DNA from: Octopus vulgaris
Lineage: Eukaryota
Direction: 5' to 3'
DNA: 64,000 nt
NCBI GenBank assembly: GCA_951406725.2
Contig: OX597816.1
Coordinates: forward strand, 156,054,001-156,118,000
Shown here one piece after another: positions 11,979 to 62,347 of the stretch. Position 1 is the first letter of the stretch. Each line of letters opens with the position of its first letter. Under the pieces are notes generated by a model that saw only the letters and a program-made list of their open reading frames with translations, ran no database searches and had not been told where the DNA came from. The position numbers were made by a program, and so were the translations under genes.

Positions 11979-12190
11979 AGGCAGCGAGCTAGCAGATTCG
12001 TTAGAACGCCGGTAAAAATGTTTAATGGCATTTCGTCAGCCTCTAGATTCTGAATTTAAATTCCGCCGAGGTCGACTTTACATTTCGGGATAGATAAAAT
12101 TAGTACCAGTTGAGCACTGGGGTTGATATAATCGGCTTTAACTCTCTCACAAAACTGCTGGTGTTGTGGCAAAACGTAAAACCAGTATTG
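11979..12190 (+). mobile_element. tRNA-derived SINE family B
   Basis: aggcagcgagctagcaga...aaattccgccgaggtcgacttt...agtaccagttgagcactgggg. Confidence 0.75.
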
Positions 12191-12281
12191 TTGATAACGA
12201 AAAGGTGTCGAGTTGGCAGACTCGTTTCTGTGCTTTCCAACCCCTCACCAGTTATCGGCTATATCACATATATATATATAT

Positions 12282-12319
<38 letters not shown>

Positions 12320-12596
12320 AATAATAAAAGGGTAAAATTAATTAATTATTAATTAATTTTACCAAGTAGTGTCCAGTATGTAAAAAAACCATTTACGGTA
12401 TATTTAAAACATTACGTTATATAATTAGGGTTCAGTAAAATAATTTACTTTACCACACACCGAACTTTTGGAAATAGCAAAAAATCTTAGCTATTTCCTC
12501 TACTATAAGAAAAGTCTCCCAGACAACGTATACTCAAAAATAATTCACGCAAGTATAGAGGGAAAAATAACGAAAGATCACACGTACATCGATTCC

Positions 12597-12657
12597 TTGA
12601 GAACGCCGTTTCTGGATTAGTTGGATATAGAGATCAACATTTCCGTCATCAGCTCAA
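12597..12657 (-). ncRNA. Minimal type-I hammerhead ribozyme motif (mirror copy)
   Basis: Exact reverse complement of 12677-12737. Confidence 0.75.
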
Positions 12658-12676
12658 GATTTCTTTATATTTGGAT

Positions 12677-12737
12677 TTGAGCTGATGACGGAAATGTTGA
12701 TCTCTATATCCAACTAATCCAGAAACGGCGTTCTCAA
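12677..12737 (+). ncRNA. Minimal type-I hammerhead ribozyme motif
   Basis: Stem I ttgag, CTGATGA (12682-12688), stem II gga..gttg..caac..tcc, GAAAC (12722-12726), ggc, GTT, stem I' ctcaa. Confidence 0.75.
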
Positions 12738-13114
12738 GGAATCGATGTACGTGTGATCTTTCGTTATTTTTCCCTCTATACCTGCGTGAATTATTTTTGA
12801 ATATACATTGTCTGGGAGATTTTTCTTATAGTAGAGGAAATAGCTAAGATTTTTTGGCTGCTATTTCTAAAAGTTCGGTGTGTGGTAAAGTAAATTATTT
12901 TACTGAACCCTAATTATATAACGTAATGTTTTATATATATATGTGTGTGTGTGTATGTGTGTATGTGTGTGTGCATGTATGTATGTAAATTTGGCCTGTA
13001 GTCAACTTTAATCTGCCTGTACTCCATCTATGTATTTATTGGCTTATACACCTTTCTTTGGTCGTATTGTTACCCATTATACGCATTCACGCGCACGCAC
13101 ACACACTGTCGCGT

Positions 13115-37262: not shown

Positions 37263-37700
37263 AGGTTTCTCATTCCTAAGGTATTTTTCGATATTGTTGT
37301 TGTTGTTATTATTATTATTATTATATTCAGGTCACTGCCTGGGACCGAACTCGGAATCTTGGGGTTAGTAGCCCGCGCTCTTAACCACTAAGCCATATAC
37401 TCGTGGGCGAACGGTCATATGGCTTAGTGGTTAAGAGCGCGGGCTAGTACCCCAAGATTCCAAGTTTGGTTCCAGGCATTGACCTAAATAATAATAATAA
37501 TAACAACAACAATAATAATTATTATTATTATTATAATAGTAATAATAACAACAACAACAACATCGAAAAGTACCTTAGGAATGAGAACCCAGGTTCGAAA
37601 TTTCTCCAAGACACCTGATGAAGACTGGCGGGTATATCAGCCGAAACTTTGTATAAATAACAAAGATGAGGGCAAATATTCGTCAAATGTAAATAATGTA
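37263..37700 (+). mobile_element. Family H2: tRNA-like head, (TAA/CAA)n and hammerhead tail, with inverted 5' duplicate (37263-37397)
   Basis: Head tggcttagtggttaagagcgcgggcta.. with B-box gagttcggtccc (intact in the inverted copy); hammerhead gacac-CTGATGA(37615-37621)-agactg..cagcc-GAAAC(37643-37647). Confidence 0.8.
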
Positions 37701-40501: not shown

Positions 40502-40509
<8 letters not shown>

Positions 40510-41559
40510 CAACAATTGAGGGTAAAATTAATTAATTATTAATCAATTTCACCAAGTGTTCAGTATGCAAAGGGACCATTTAAGGCGAATTCAAATTATT
40601 ACATTATATAAAAGGGCTTAGTAAAATAAATTACTTTGCCGCATACTGAACTCATTAGAAATAGCAGCTAAAAAACTTTTTTAAAACTATTTCTAATACT
40701 TAAAGAAAATCTCTCTCATATATAGTGTTTGCTTAATTCAACTCACAAAAGTTTGGGGGTAAGGACATCAAAAAATCAAATGCTAAGGTTATTTGAGAAC
40801 GTACGTTTCAAGATTAGTCAAAACAACACTTCTATCATCAGCTCAGAAACTCCTTGGTTTGGATTTGGAAACACTGAAAGTAAGAACATACCCTTTCGGC
40901 TTCTCATCGCTCTCGAAGATCTGCTCGTAACTAACAGTGCCAACAAACCCAAATAAGCAAGCGAAGAATTTCTGTTCTCCCCTTTCCACCAGCGTGGGTT
41001 AAAATCATCAAACACTATGCTTATTTCGGTAAAATCCGAAGCATTAATTAGAGGGAGATTAATTATAATTTCAACAATTGAGGGTAAAATTAATTAATTA
41101 TTAATCAATTTCACCAAGTGTTCAGTATGCAAAGGGACCATTTAAGGCGAATTCAAATTATTACATTATATAAAAGGGCTTAGTAAAATAAATTACTTTG
41201 CCGCATACTGAACTCATTAGAAATAGCAGCTAACAAACTTTTTTAAAACTATTTCTAATACTTAAAGAAAATCTCTCTCATATATTCTCTCATTAATTTT
41301 ACCCTCAATTGTTGAAATTATAATTAATCTCCCTCTAATTAATGCTTCGGATTTTACCGAAATAAGCATAGTGTTTGATGATTTTAACCCACGCTGGTGG
41401 AAGGGGAGAACAGAAATTCTTCGCTTGCTTATTTGGGTTTGTTGGCACTGTTAGTTACGAGCAGATCTTCGAGAGCGATGAGAAGCCGAAAGGGTATGTT
41501 CTTACTTTCAGTGTTTCCAAATCCAAACCAAGGAGTTTCTGAGCTGACGATAGAAGTGT

Positions 41560-41565
<6 letters not shown>
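40502..41565. mobile_element. Family H1: 562-bp tandem unit (about 1.4 copies) plus inverted partial copy; retrozyme-like
   Basis: 40502-40723 is repeated at 41064-41285. 41292-41565 is the reverse complement of about 40820-41094. (TA)n on both flanks. Confidence 0.85.
40794..40845 (-). ncRNA. Minimal type-I hammerhead ribozyme motif with palindromic stem III
   Basis: Minus strand reads tgag-CTGATGA-tagaagtgttgttttgactaatctt-GAAAC-gtac-GTT-ctca; aacgtacgtt is palindromic. Confidence 0.8.
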
Positions 41566-42246: not shown

Positions 42247-42464
42247 CAAGGTGATATATATATATAGAGAGAGAGATGGATGTATATATATATATATATA
42301 TATATAGATATGTTTGTTGAAATGGAAAGATGTATTATCTTGTTACGGATTACTCAAAAGTTTAACCGATACCTGGGTAGCAAAAATCACAGCAGAAAAA
42401 ACACGGTTGGAGATATGACGATATGGTGTTGCAACCGTGCGTTGGCGCGGATAATTGAAGTTTA

Positions 42465-42664
42465 ATATAATTAGTGAATAGAAGAAATGGAGTTGAACGA
42501 AGATTGTACAGAATTCCTTTTATTACATTCTACACATGTTTCAAAGGCCACAATTTAATCAGAATTTAACCAGAATTTGGAAAATTGTGGCCTTTGAAAC
42601 ATGTGTAGAATGTAATAAAAGGAATTCTGTACAATCTTCGTTCAACTCCATTTCTTCTATTCAC

Positions 42665-42673
<9 letters not shown>
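42465..42673. repeat. Perfect 92-bp inverted repeat with 25-bp spacer, abutting (TA)n
   Basis: 42465-42556 is the exact reverse complement of 42582-42673. Confidence 0.9.
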
Positions 42674-45289: not shown

Positions 45290-45496
45290 AATTATGTACA
45301 TTATTTACATTCGACGGATATTTGTCCTCATCTCGTTTGTTGTTAACACAACGTTTCGGCTGATATACCCTCCAGCCTTCTTCAGGTTTCTTGGGGAAAT
45401 TTTGAAACTGGGTTCTCATTCCTAAGGTATTTTCCGATGTTATTAGTATTATTACTATTATTATTTTATTATTATTATTATTATTATTATTACTAC

Positions 45497-46497: not shown

Positions 46498-48597
46498 TCA
46501 CATCGACAATGCTCTTCTCAATACGTGTGATGTACCAGTTAAGACAATCTTTTGCACTTCTTGCAGGGATGGTAAGTCAGGGATCATTCTCATATAATTT
46601 TCGGTTCCCTTCTTGATCATTCCTAGTGCTCCTACGATCACTGGTATTGTAACCGCCTTGAGATGCCACATTTTCTCAATTTCAATGAGTAGGTCTTTAT
46701 ATTTTCTGAGCTTGTCAAACTCTTTCGCTGAGATATTATGATCACAGGGGATGCTCATGTCGATCAATAAGCAAACTTTATTGTTTTGGTCTTTCACAAC
46801 AATATCTGGTTTATTGGCCTTGATGGTTCGGTCTGTATGTACTGGAAAGTCCCACAGGATGGTTACATTTTCTCCTTCAGTTACAGCCTCAGGGTGGTGA
46901 TTATACCACTTGTCGGCAGTTTTGATATTGTAATGCCGACTTATTAGCCAGTGGAGATATTGGCCAACTCTGTCATGTCTTAATTTATACTCCACTGGTG
47001 CTAAGACTTTACATCCAGAGATTAGGTGGTCCACTGTTTCAATCATGTCGTTGCAGAATCGGCATTTTGGGTCTGCTCCATTTTTCATCACATTGGCCTG
47101 GTAGTTCCGGGTTAATAGGCTTTGGTCTTGAGCAGCCAGGATGAAACCTTCGCTCTCTGCTTTTAGCCCTGAGCTCCGCAGCCACTGATGGGTTTGCTTC
47201 TGGTCAACATCAGCTTGTTTGCTGCGGGTCACATATTTGCCGTGCAGAGGTTTCTCCTCCCACCTATCAGCCAATTGCTCGTGCGCTTTTTTTATTGCCA
47301 TCATTTTCACCTTCTTTGCAACAATAGTTGCCGTACTTCCCTCGGGTTGTTCAGTTTGGGTATCCTGCACGAGATCAATAGCAAATTTTTTGCTTTCCTT
47401 GATGATAGAATGAAGCTTCTTTCGTCTCTCGTGATTTTCCACGAGCTTTAGCATCCAGTCATTCGATATTTCGAGATATTTGGCCAGTCCAATTGTGGTT
47501 GTTTTGTAAGCTAGTTCAAATTGGATCAGGCCTCGACCTCCTTGGGCTCTGGGAAGGTAAAGGCGATCTACGTCTGCCTTTGGGTGGTGCATCCTATTAC
47601 AACTCAGCAGCTTGCGTATTTTTCTATCTATATTCTTTACTTCACTCATATTCCAGTTCAACACATTGTAGCTATAAGTAACAACTGGAACTGCTAAGGA
47701 ATTTATAGCTAACACCTTGTTACGTGCATTTAGTTCAGATTTCAGGACTGCACGAACTCTCCTATAACATTCCTTCCTGATTTTCTCTTTCATGCTTGCA
47801 TGCTGAATACCAGAGCCTTCATTTATCCCTAAATATTTGTATGTCTGTTCTTGCTCAAGCTCTCTTATGACTGTGTCAACATCTAACACGACTGAATTTG
47901 TGGTCTTCACTTTCCCTTTCTGGAAAGTGGCCTTGGCACACTTCTCAAGTCCAAACTCCATCCCGATGTCATCGCTGAATGCTTTCACGGTGCGCAATAG
48001 GCCTTCAAGTTCATTATTGTCTTTACCATAAAGTTTTAAGTCATCCATATAAAATAGATGGCTTATTTTTTTATTGGCAATTTTATACCCATACCCTGTT
48101 CTGTTTAATTCACTTGTAAGGGGTATTAGGGCTATGCAGAATATTAAAGGTGAAAGTGAGTCACCTTGAAAAATTCCACAGTTGATGTTTATATTTTCTG
48201 AGGCAAGTACTCCATTAGAGTGGTATAATTGGAGATTCGTATTCCACAATGACATATTGTGCTTCAGGAAGTTTGAAATCACAGGGGAAATTTTAAAGAT
48301 GTCCAGCGATCTCAAGATCCATGGATGCGGTATACTGTCGAAGGCCTTTTTATAGTCAATCCATGCGGTGCTGAGATTTCTGCGCTTGTTGTGACAGTTC
48401 TCAAGGATCATACGATTGATTAGCAGTTGATCTTTGCATCCGTAAGAGCCTCGGCGGCACCCTTTTTGTTCAATGGGGAAAATATCGTTCTTCTCCATGA
48501 ATGCATATGTTTTCTCCGCCAGGATAGATGTTAGGATTTTATACGTGGTGGATAGACAGGTTATAGGCCGATAGTTTTTTGGAAGGTTGGTTTCGTT
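46498..48597 (-). CDS. Non-LTR retrotransposon RT, CCHC zinc finger and restriction-like endonuclease (N-truncated; the track's N-terminal extension to 48735 is an inversion artefact)
   Basis: NYRPITCL, QKG, WIDYKKAFDS, GIFQGDSLSP, FYMDD, YKYLG, CRFC..ETVDHLISGC, RHD, KPDIV..LLID..KLRKY. Confidence 0.92.
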   Translation of the reverse strand, partial: NETNLPKNYRPITCLSTTYKILTSILAEKTYAFMEKNDIFPIEQKGCRRGSYGCKDQLLINRMILENCHNKRRNLSTAWIDYKKAFDSIPHPWILRSLDIFKISPVISNFLKHNMSLWNTNLQLYHSNGVLASENININCGIFQGDSLSPLIFCIALIPLTSELNRTGYGYKIANKKISHLFYMDDLKLYGKDNNELEGLLRTVKAFSDDIGMEFGLEKCAKATFQKGKVKTTNSVVLDVDTVIRELEQEQTYKYLGINEGSGIQHASMKEKIRKECYRRVRAVLKSELNARNKVLAINSLAVPVVTYSYNVLNWNMSEVKNIDRKIRKLLSCNRMHHPKADVDRLYLPRAQGGRGLIQFELAYKTTTIGLAKYLEISNDWMLKLVENHERRKKLHSIIKESKKFAIDLVQDTQTEQPEGSTATIVAKKVKMMAIKKAHEQLADRWEEKPLHGKYVTRSKQADVDQKQTHQWLRSSGLKAESEGFILAAQDQSLLTRNYQANVMKNGADPKCRFCNDMIETVDHLISGCKVLAPVEYKLRHDRVGQYLHWLISRHYNIKTADKWYNHHPEAVTEGENVTILWDFPVHTDRTIKANKPDIVVKDQNNKVCLLIDMSIPCDHNISAKEFDKLRKYKDLLIEIEKMWHLKAVTIPVIVGALGMIKKGTENYMRMIPDLPSLQEVQKIVLTGTSHVLRRALSM

Positions 48598-48942
48598 ATA
48601 GGGAAGGAGAAAGTAACCGTTAAAGACCCCCCTCCCATGGAAGAAGTTCAAAACTTTTGGGAAAGGATTTGGAGTGACAAGAAGACGTACAACATAAATG
48701 CAGACTGGATTATACAAACTGAAGGATCCTACCAAAATTTACAACAACAAGCATGGGAAGACATCACAATAGCAGACCTAAGAAAGGTACTCACGAAGGC
48801 CCATAATTGGAAATCCCCCGGTAAAGATAGGGTGCCGAATTTCTGGCTCGCATCGCTCCCGTGCGCACACGGTAAGCTAGTTCAGCTGCTCAATGGAATT
48901 TTGAGAGACCCAAAGAAAACACCTGAATGGTTAGCAAGTAGA
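48598..48942 (+). CDS. Inverted upstream segment of the same ORF (RT domain 0 region)
   Basis: GKEKVTVKDPPPMEEVQNFWERIW...NWKSPGKDRVPNFWL...PEWLAS, which normally precedes G.T.LLPK..P.NYRPI. Confidence 0.85.
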
Positions 48943-53060: not shown

Positions 53061-54884
53061 AGCAATACTTATGGAGAAAATTCCAACTATCGCTGGTTTT
53101 CATATTTTATTTCCTGAATCCCAACCGCAGTGTTTCAATTATAACGCCTGTACATTTATGGGAAGATTGAGTTAAACCTATATTCAGAAAAATTGTTTCA
53201 TTAAAAGTATACTATTGAATATTCATCGAAAATAAGATTCTATAAAGAATAAATCTTTCTCCATTTACAAGGTATTTTGTATATGAAATAGGATGGATAA
53301 AAATATTACTGGTTTTCCCACTTGAATATATGAAAATAGTTTGTATTCTTGAAGATGATAATCAAAATACGAAACGTTTACGAGATGATTCTTTAGCCAA
53401 TTAATCGAATAACGGTTACATAAAAATCAATCGTATTTCGATATTGTTTAAGAATACTACTTATAAAATGCCATGGCGCCATAATTTGTGAGTTATAAGA
53501 AGAATTAGAATAATGCAACGCAGATTTGCAAATTCTGAAGCTTCGATATCTAATCAAACAAACTCACTCATTTGAAGCAGGGGAATGGAGCAAATTACTG
53601 CTGTATAAGATAGATTTCCCTGTAGTATTTCTTCTGATACTATGCGCTCTAAGTTCAAACAGACAAGAAGCGATAAAGACACTATTTGACGTAATCAATA
53701 CTACCTCATTTAAGAACTCAAGCGTTCACTAAACTGTAAAATCAGTTATGCTACTATCAGTACCAGTCAAAGGCTGAGGCCACGCTGGGGCACCTCCACT
53801 AACATCTACCAACCGGCATTATATAATAACATGAAGATGAAAATTCCATCCCAGGAATACAGGTTGTGATCTTAAGAGACATGTGATTAGGAGAAACGCG
53901 CGTAGCAATGCGTTTTATTGTTTATACATTCCACCCAAGGATTACTGTTATTATTACTATGCATATACACACACTTAATACCTTAATGTTTCTTTTTTAA
54001 GCTGGGTAACGTTAATCTCAGTTTCATTTTAAACAAAAGAATTGTGTACAGTAAATATTATAGTTCTACAAGATGAGAGGTAACACATTGACATCGAATT
54101 TTCCTAGCTTTAGTGAAAGCATCTGATGAAAGCTCGAAGGGCCGAAACATTGAAGTCACCTGCACACTTCTTCACGTAAAAGTATAATATAGATACATAT
54201 ACCCACCTACATATATTTTGTTTATGTATGTATGTATCCTTGTATGTAAGTATGTATGAATGTATGTATATATGTATGCATTTATGTATGCATGTATGTA
54301 TGTATGCATTTATGTATGTATGCATTTATGTATGTATGTATGTATGTATGTATGTATGTATGTATGTATGTATGTATGTATGTATGTGTGGGTGCCTTGT
54401 GACTTTGTGCAGAAAGAAACACGAGGTTTTATTTTAATGGGCAAATCTTTTACGTCATAGTGATTTGATTTAGCAAATATTTCAATAAAAGTTTCCATAA
54501 TTTTCTGTCGCTTGTTGATCGGTAGGTACGTGGTTCATAGAATCTAGCAGTCAAAGTAAAAGTAATTTAATGATCACTCATTTCACGAGAGTCATTAGAG
54601 CGACTGATATACTTTGGTCTATTAACGACGAATATCAAAAGCACATTTGTCAAATATACGCTGATTTAATTAACTTCTCTCTTATTCAATTACAGTTAGT
54701 CCGCGCAAATAATCAGTTTGCAATAATGACAATGCGCGATAGAATTAAGAGTGTGTTCGGAAATAAAAATAATACTAATCACAAAGACTAACAGTAATGT
54801 CTTTTATAGTAGTTGCCTGGGCAGTAAATGAGTGATATTATAAACCTCTAACATAGAGGAGATGTCTACACTGATTTCATGACA

Positions 54885-60746: not shown

Positions 60747-62347
<1,601 letters not shown>

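What the first reader, a model, noticed from the sequence alone, without database searches (positions are those of the whole stretch)
12317..12933. Long foldback with two mirror-image hammerheads; diverged relative of the 40.5-kb family
Seen: about 253-bp inverted arms with a few mismatches, centred just 5' of hammerhead stem I, so ribozyme-sense sequence runs outward on both strands. It shares agggtaaaattaattaattattaat..accaagt and agtaaaataa.ttacttt..gaaatagca with 40502. Stem II and loop III differ completely, but (t/c)tgag-CTGATGA...GAAAC..GTT-ctcaa is retained. Inference: retention of core and stem I between diverged subfamilies indicates selection for ribozyme function. Read-through transcription would give a long dsRNA, a possible ADAR substrate (relevant in coleoids). 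Caveat: the first pair of stem II is a C-A mismatch.
Basis: partly seen in the sequence, partly recalled or inferred. Interest (0 to 1): 0.75.

Follow-up and report, generated by a model that had tools for sequence, protein, structure and literature searches.

The report
Two-armed copy of a hammerhead retrozyme
The palindrome is real but ordinary: it is one truncated, two-armed copy of a thousands-strong 560-base non-coding jumping repeat whose conserved hammerhead motif is predicted to self-cut, the mirror shape was likely left by a borrowed Penelope-type enzyme during insertion, and in this copy the foldback is predicted to mask both hammerheads.

Summary
The palindrome (arms 12405-12657 / 12677-12933, five substitutions, one 4-nt gap), both hammerhead motifs and kinship with the 40.5-kb element (76% identity) are confirmed. 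It is one 5'-truncated copy of a non-coding ~560-nt tandem-unit family (3,347 hammerhead-pattern hits genome-wide) that inserts into (TA)n. A 5' inverted arm is routine (38 of 84 copies), its outer end recurs ~90-105 nt short of the fixed 3' end (32 of 38), and the centre position varies: the Penelope inverted-repeat-plus-tail signature. At family level the hammerhead fold is under selection: 15 of 22 pairs show compensatory change, and positions 3/8 read C-G 3020, U-A 169, U-G 129, C-A 29. In this copy a read-through RNA is predicted to bury both motifs; no A-to-G excess is seen in genomic copies; editing and expression are untested. Best reading: a non-LTR retrozyme mobilised by a Penelope-like enzyme that primes on both cut target strands; the partner was not identified. 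The kind is published (PMC7229834, PMC4209133), and this scan reported the same architecture for other repeat families in this genome. Low-to-moderate interest.

The parts
12268..12316 (.). (TA)n target microsatellite, long-end side
   Evidence: sequence; 30 of 30 top relatives are followed by TA-rich microsatellite sequence at this end
12317..12681 (-). Direct arm: 5'-truncated retrozyme monomer, unit positions 192-563 of 563, ending at the family's fixed 3' end
   Evidence: 93% to the unit of L014; 223 exact hits to the terminal 22-mer
12317..12404 (-). One-sided 88-nt tail between the long and the short end site
   Evidence: absent from the inverted arm; arm ends are bimodal, none of 74 between 67 and 130 nt from the anchor motif
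12471..12497 (-). Conserved GAAATAGC/GCTATTTC stem-loop, left copy (4-nt deletion); candidate protein-binding element (inferred)
12597..12657 (-). Type I hammerhead motif, direct arm; predicted cut after GUU between 12602 and 12601
   Evidence: cleavage not tested
12658..12676 (-). 19-nt unpaired centre; native sequence upstream of stem I (holds the 5' strand of distal stem I)
   Evidence: matches relatives' upstream sequence
12677..12681 (.). 5-nt microhomology (TTGAG/CTCAA) shared by both arms at the junction
   Evidence: hits overlap by 5 nt in L001; relatives read CTCTCAAATCC here
12677..12933 (+). Inverted arm: unit positions 216-~473, ending at the short end site
12677..12737 (+). Type I hammerhead motif, inverted arm (lacks the 5' strand of distal stem I); predicted cut after 12732
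12837..12867 (+). Conserved GAAATAGC/GCTATTTC stem-loop, right copy
12934..12943 (.). (TA)n target microsatellite, short-end side, followed by (TG)n
   Evidence: sequence; junction list
40506..41565 (-). Relative from the most abundant subfamily: 557-nt unit + partial tandem + inverted arm

Best explanation
This is one 5'-truncated, two-armed copy of a non-coding ~560-nt tandem repeat family that carries a conserved type I hammerhead motif and inserts into (TA)n, and it was likely copied by a Penelope-like reverse transcriptase/endonuclease supplied in trans. Shown: family, fixed ends, tandem arrays, target, covariation. Inferred life cycle: tandem source arrays are transcribed, hammerheads (probably as dimers, since stem III is short and often palindromic) cut the RNA to monomers that may circularise; the enzyme nicks both strands of a (TA)n tract and primes cDNA from each, one at the long site (unit 563) and one at the short site (unit ~455-474); the two cDNAs run toward the template's 5' end, stop at variable points and are joined by short microhomology (here CTCAA). 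The palindrome is thus an insertion by-product; in this copy the antisense arm is transcribed first on either strand and is predicted to mask the ribozyme. Confidence 0.85 for identity and by-product status, about 0.6 for two-strand priming as the route for this copy.
For: 223 exact 3'-end hits and 2,172 + 3,347 hammerhead-pattern hits, reversed-pattern controls 0. Arrays of six units at ~560-nt spacing. 38 of 84 copies picked by 3' end have an adjacent inverted arm; outer end at unit 455-479 in 32 of 38. 74 arm ends from sets not picked by the 3' end are bimodal; 12 of 17 divergent pairs are long+short. In 19 of 37 the inverted arm reaches >15 nt further 5' than the direct arm, which simple foldback of the first cDNA cannot give. 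Arms share common minor alleles 83 times and differ at such sites 9 times, so both come from the same or a near-identical template. Junctions: 2-6 shared nt in 42% of 40 vs 26% of 399 simulated, filler in 23% vs 3%. A purified Penelope-type protein cleaves and extends both strands and starts at two internal RNA sites that define the tail (PMC11167929). Inverted 5' copy, tail and (TA)n bias are PLE hallmarks (PMC8557442, PMC3846280). Intact RT+GIY-YIG ORFs of 781 and 775 codons exist in this genome.
Against: No autonomous partner shares sequence with the unit: blastn and a family profile over 76 loci around GIY-YIG ORFs (42 + 30 + 4) hit only three separately inserted family copies and one chance 24-mer; only 150 of 6,136 GIY-YIG candidates were scored. 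The tail (~90-105 nt) is longer than the 30-40 nt reported for PLEs, and the unit longer than the 170-400 nt of published retrozymes. 5 of 17 pairs are not long+short, and 12 of 17 is only modestly above the ~8 expected from independent ends. In this copy the direct arm reaches 24 nt further 5' than the inverted arm, which foldback also explains. Asymmetric deletion after insertion could mimic longer inverted arms. Cleavage, circles and transcription were not observed.
Confidence: 0.8

Rival explanations
1. Same element, but the inverted arm arose by self-priming: the truncated first cDNA folded back at CTCAA/TTGAG and was copied until it met the TA-like stretch at unit ~474 and annealed to the target.
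For: 5-nt microhomology at the centre; inverted arm is wholly contained in the direct arm here; 9 of 37 loci are near-perfect palindromes; arms share alleles; self-priming was proposed for PLE palindromes (PMC3846280).
Against: 19 of 37 inverted arms hold sequence absent from the direct arm; some arms are multi-unit on both sides; single-armed copies also end at the short site.
Confidence: 0.3
2. The palindrome is a selected functional RNA element of the host: a dsRNA substrate for ADAR or a hairpin source of siRNA against the family.
For: Predicted 617-nt hairpin, -438 kcal/mol; inverted Penelope copies gave matching siRNAs in Drosophila (PMC3681739).
Against: Arms have decayed independently without compensation (3 substitutions and a deletion on one, 2 on the other); 45% of copies have such arms; no host protein domain in 84 frames tested; no A>G excess in copies.
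Confidence: 0.07
3. The unit is the pseudo-LTR of an autonomous Penelope element not yet found, and these are just its truncated ends.
For: PLE ends give the same architecture; dual hammerheads on opposite strands were reported for truncated PLEs (PMC4209133).
Against: In every copy that extends past unit position 1 the upstream sequence is another unit or target DNA, never coding sequence; pure six-unit arrays exist; no ORF in the unit.
Confidence: 0.1
4. Assembly or read artefact (foldback chimera).
For: No contig of 4 runs spans the centre (uninformative for a repeat).
Against: Arms differ at 5 sites plus a 4-nt gap, and the outer end falls at a family-wide recurrent site flanked by (TA)n.
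Confidence: 0.03

Closest known systems
Metazoan non-LTR retrozymes (Cervera and de la Pena 2020, PMC7229834; Li, Clavereau and Pollet 2026, 10.64898/2026.07.22.740005)
   Same: Non-coding tandem monomers, one type I hammerhead per unit, thousands of copies, low GC, coexisting with autonomous PLEs; axolotl HHR_Amex2 also has a mismatch (U.U) at the base of stem II.
   Different: Unit 557-563 nt versus ~170-400 nt; mostly dispersed truncated copies with inverted arms and two fixed ends, which the passages I read of these papers do not describe; cleavage and circRNA not tested here.
EN+ Penelope-like elements and their pLTR hammerheads (PMC4209133, PMC8557442, PMC3846280, PMC11167929)
   Same: Partial tandems, inverted 5'-truncated copy, one-sided tail, (TA)n targets, short palindromic stem III, U3-A8 core variant, dual hammerheads 100-700 bp apart on opposite strands.
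   Different: No ORF in cis; tail about 90-105 nt instead of 30-40; G10.1-C11.1 is not kept; stem II has a conserved 3x3 internal loop; no sequence link to the PLE families sampled.
L1 twin priming (recalled; search listing only)
   Same: Two priming events at one target, joined by microhomology, giving a 5' inversion.
   Different: Here the second start is at a recurrent site and the arms duplicate each other, as expected from a tandem or circular template or two RNA copies.

Membership tests
Metazoan non-LTR retrozyme | No protein coding capacity | tested here: met
   No long frame in six-frame translation of the unit; 0 Pfam hits for the three frames of 55+ aa inside the element
Metazoan non-LTR retrozyme | Tandem monomers, each with a type I hammerhead | tested here: met
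   Met for the family: six-unit arrays at ~560-nt spacing. This copy itself is less than one unit
Metazoan non-LTR retrozyme | Monomer of about 170-400 nt | tested here: not met
   563 and 557 nt; size is descriptive, and Li et al. allow periods up to 1000
Metazoan non-LTR retrozyme | Self-cleavage and circular RNA | not testable with these tools
   No listed holder on record as RNA; contigs only
Type I hammerhead ribozyme | Core C3 U4 G5 A6 N7 G8 A9, G12 A13 A14, A15.1-U16.1, H17 | tested here: met
   All present, H17 = U; 3/8 pair covaries genome-wide
Type I hammerhead ribozyme | Stems I, II, III around the core | tested here: met
   90.8% of 469 cells paired, 15 of 22 pairs with two-sided change, slid controls 31-42%; stem III is 2-3 bp and would need a dimer
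Type I hammerhead ribozyme | Paired 10.1-11.1 closing stem II | tested here: not met
   C.A here; unpaired in 19 of 20 scored rows; A-U and G-C occur in other subfamilies; U.U precedent in PMC3088659 and PMC7229834
Type I hammerhead ribozyme | Match to an Rfam hammerhead model | tested here: not met
   None at E<=10 on 12660-12780; none among the 150 of 242 rows shown for the window
Type I hammerhead ribozyme | Catalytic cleavage | not testable with these tools
   Needs in vitro assay
EN+ Penelope-like element (autonomous) | RT + GIY-YIG ORF in cis | tested here: not met
EN+ Penelope-like element (autonomous) | Partial tandem, inverted 5' copy, one-sided tail, (TA)n target | tested here: met
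EN+ Penelope-like element (autonomous) | Sequence shared with the pLTR of an autonomous partner | tested here: inconclusive
   None in 76 loci sampled; most PLE copies unsampled

The most novel reading that the evidence does not exclude
This family is a natural mutational scan of a new hammerhead architecture (unpaired 10.1/11.1, a conserved AAU/URA internal loop in stem II that docks on the stem I internal loop, and a C-G to U-G to U-A walk of the 3-8 pair), and its thousands of long+short two-armed insertions record Penelope-type enzymes reverse-transcribing a circular retrozyme RNA from both cut target strands at once, leaving foldback copies that silence their own ribozyme and feed the host's dsRNA pathways.
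Probability: 0.3. Interest if true: 0.6.

Novelty: new member of a known kind. Interest (0 to 1): 0.3.

Why it matters
The single palindrome matters little. The family gives (1) thousands of insertion footprints that test how retrozymes are mobilised, a link to Penelope elements so far argued mainly from phylogeny; (2) a hammerhead variant series with covariation in the catalytic 3-8 pair and a tolerated open 10.1/11.1 position, ready for assay; (3) a large pool of potential hairpin RNAs in an animal group known (recalled) for heavy A-to-I editing. All three are extensions of known systems.

Tried and rejected
Rfam found only miRNA-hairpin noise and no hammerhead model. Sequencing runs: no RNA holder listed; contigs of four DNA-type runs cover family sequence but no listed piece spans the centre; contigs of four runs guessed to be RNA cover the family's 3' two-thirds, but the stretch I laid also took in flank and an unrelated repeat, and contigs cannot show strand, ends or expression: no evidence either way. 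Partner search: three family hits near PLE ORFs (L158, L177, L267) are separate insertions in neighbouring (TA)n; a 24-nt hit in L262 is chance. First conservation test (95 sequences) showed no core excess (0.50 vs 0.53) because truncated and inverted copies were included; after dropping 35 of 95 by a filter that does not use the core (and that also removed some genuine copies) the core scored 0.75 vs 0.50 (31 of 100,000 random draws), with 3 non-spanning clusters still in. Stem I/III counts were mis-parsed and replaced. The idea that 10.1/11.1 is never paired was dropped (A-U, G-C exist). A centre hotspot at stem I was rejected. Two-template origin of the arms was not supported. A-to-G strand bias: none. 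A paper on dimer-cleaving PLE hammerheads (Lunse et al. 2017, recalled) was not held.

Full report
Observation. The foldback is as described: 253 matches, 6 mismatches, one 4-nt gap; true arms 12405-12657 and 12677-12933 around a 19-nt spacer, each starting at hammerhead stem I. The motif is present on both strands and the 40.5-kb element is 76% identical (268 of 352). Stem II is homologous between the two, not unrelated. The arms differ by five transitions and a 4-nt deletion spread over both arms, which argues against a chimeric read; independent contigs neither confirm nor deny it.

Family. The genome is 2.8 Gb in about 30 large contigs; an octopus is my inference, given by no call. The direct arm is positions 192-563 of a 563-nt unit that occurs in partial tandems; the 40.5-kb subfamily has a 557-nt unit and arrays of six. 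The 3' end is fixed and followed by TA-rich microsatellite in 30 of 30 top hits; its 22-mer has 223 exact hits. Hammerhead patterns give 2,172 and 3,347 hits, reversed controls 0. The unit has no long frame and no copy examined runs into coding sequence.

The palindrome is routine. Of 88 loci picked only by the 3' 22-mer, 4 had no usable anchor; 38 of the remaining 84 have an adjacent inverted arm. The outer end lies at unit 455-479 in 32 of 38 (BLAST ends of 474-478 run a few bases into (TA)n) and is nearly always followed by (TA)n; the finding's 12933 is this site. Inner ends range from unit 1 to 491, so a centre beside stem I is incidental. In the first 100 hits I count by eye 22 close divergent hammerhead pairs. 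In sets not picked by the 3' end, 74 arm ends fall 27-66 or 131-183 nt from an anchor motif, none between; 12 of 17 divergent pairs are long+short, 3 short+short, 2 long+long. This is the inverted 5' copy with a one-sided tail described for Penelope-like elements (PMC8557442, PMC3846280), and dual opposite-strand hammerheads 100-700 bp apart were already noted (PMC4209133).

How the arms form. In 19 of 37 loci the inverted arm reaches more than 15 nt further 5' than the direct arm, in 9 the two are within 15 nt, in 9 the direct arm is longer (a few of these loci have further downstream units). Arms are more alike than the median other copy in 16 of 18 loci but match or beat the best other copy in only 8, and share common minor alleles 83 times against 9 discordances: one template or near-identical templates. 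Junctions show 2-6 shared bases (42% of 40 vs 26% simulated) or filler (23% vs 3%); here CTCAA is shared. The anole PLE protein cuts and extends both strands and starts at two internal RNA sites bounding the tail (PMC11167929). Two-strand priming then joining explains all classes; foldback self-priming explains this copy equally well but not the 19, unless deletions followed.

Ribozyme. Across 22 chosen variants, 90.8% of cells pair, 15 of 22 pairs have two-sided changes, slid controls give 31-42%; RNAalifold finds stems I and II independently but not stem III. Related sequences inflate the shuffle control, and rows were picked with core-containing patterns, but stem I, distal stem I and distal stem II were not fixed by the patterns and all covary. 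Positions 3/8 read C-G 3020, U-A 169, U-G 129, C-A 29; independence would give about 18 U-A and 180 C-A, though copies are not independent events. In copies picked by a motif 150 nt downstream, the core scores 0.75 against 0.50 (after the filtering told under Tried and rejected); a 3' stem-loop block is at least as conserved, partly by construction. 10.1/11.1 is unpaired in 19 of 20 scored rows, so C.A is a family trait; U.U has precedent (PMC3088659, PMC7229834). H17 is U in this subfamily. Stem III is short and often an exact palindrome; here AACGGCGUU gives a dimer duplex of -8.2 kcal/mol with a G.G mismatch, against -11.6 for the 40.5-kb form. The finding's subfamily keeps only 2 of 4 distal stem I pairs, so it may be a weaker variant.

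This copy. Isolated, stems I and II are predicted at 0.95-0.99 for most pairs; inside the 617-nt palindrome at about 1e-65 and 1e-36. Rare substitutions hit the core of genomic copies about as often as flanks (1.7% vs 2.2%), and there is no A>G strand excess. No host protein domain was found in 84 of 205 filtered frames tested (two LINE-type RT hits elsewhere). Read-through, editing and siRNA remain untested; inverted Penelope copies did yield siRNA in Drosophila (PMC3681739).

Partner. Intact RT+GIY-YIG ORFs of 781 and 775 codons occur in many near-identical copies; the 781-codon family ends in (TA)n, forms partial tandems and has a U3-A8 hammerhead-like motif with a palindromic stem III. Neither shares sequence with the unit, so the mobiliser is inferred, not identified.

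Literature seen. PMC4209133 and PMC11167929: parts 1-2 of 4; PMC7229834: passages and part 3 of 6; the 2026 preprint: part 1 of 5 and passages; PMC8557442, PMC3846280, PMC3088659, PMC3681739: passages. Searches listed no paper on octopus hammerhead retrozymes; supplements (for example the invertebrate hammerhead alignments of PMC4209133) were not seen and may list this family. The scan's earlier notes report the same two-ended architecture for 355-495-nt families in this genome; no note matched this sequence. My reading was written before that look-up.

Verdict. Real, explained, a new member of a known kind. Interest 0.3.

Noticed in passing
window 40506-41565: Relative with full unit, partial tandem and an inverted arm that stops at unit 243, inside stem II, instead of the usual short site.
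   Followed up: partly
window 42456-42670: Another long palindrome with a short spacer next to (TA)n, holding GAAACATGT; likely an inverted end of a different Penelope-type element.
   Followed up: no
window 37615-37646 (+), 45354-45385 (-), 54123-54147 (+): Three further hammerhead-like motifs of other repeat families, with an extra A after the core as in PLE minimal hammerheads; the first two look decayed.
   Followed up: no
window 46498-48738 (-) and 61416-62165 (-): Open frames of 746 and 249 aa with RVT_1 hits; LINE-type retrotransposons.
   Followed up: partly
L181-L186 (e.g. G000:C16:20834500-20841500): Young autonomous PLE, 781-codon RT+GIY-YIG frame with a Cx4Cx2C motif (Neptune-like by inference), ~4.8-kb tandem unit, U3-A8 hammerhead-like motif about 100 nt from its (TA)n end.
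   Followed up: partly
L253-L286: Second young PLE family, 775-codon frame, many near-identical copies, long microsatellite-rich 3' region; L285 shows tandem plus inverted ends; no canonical hammerhead found by my scan.
   Followed up: partly
listings; L193-L252: Distant subfamilies (35-55% diverged) keep the fold with U3-A8 or U3-G8 cores, GUC cut triplets and different stem I sequences; one (L250) has the canonical G10.1-C11.1 pair.
   Followed up: yes
L032, L038, L045, L050, L090, L100, L101: A sub-lineage carries a 21-nt insertion in loop II that leaves the stems intact.
   Followed up: no
window 12028-12144: Very high summed contig depth just left of the element: another abundant repeat.
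   Followed up: no
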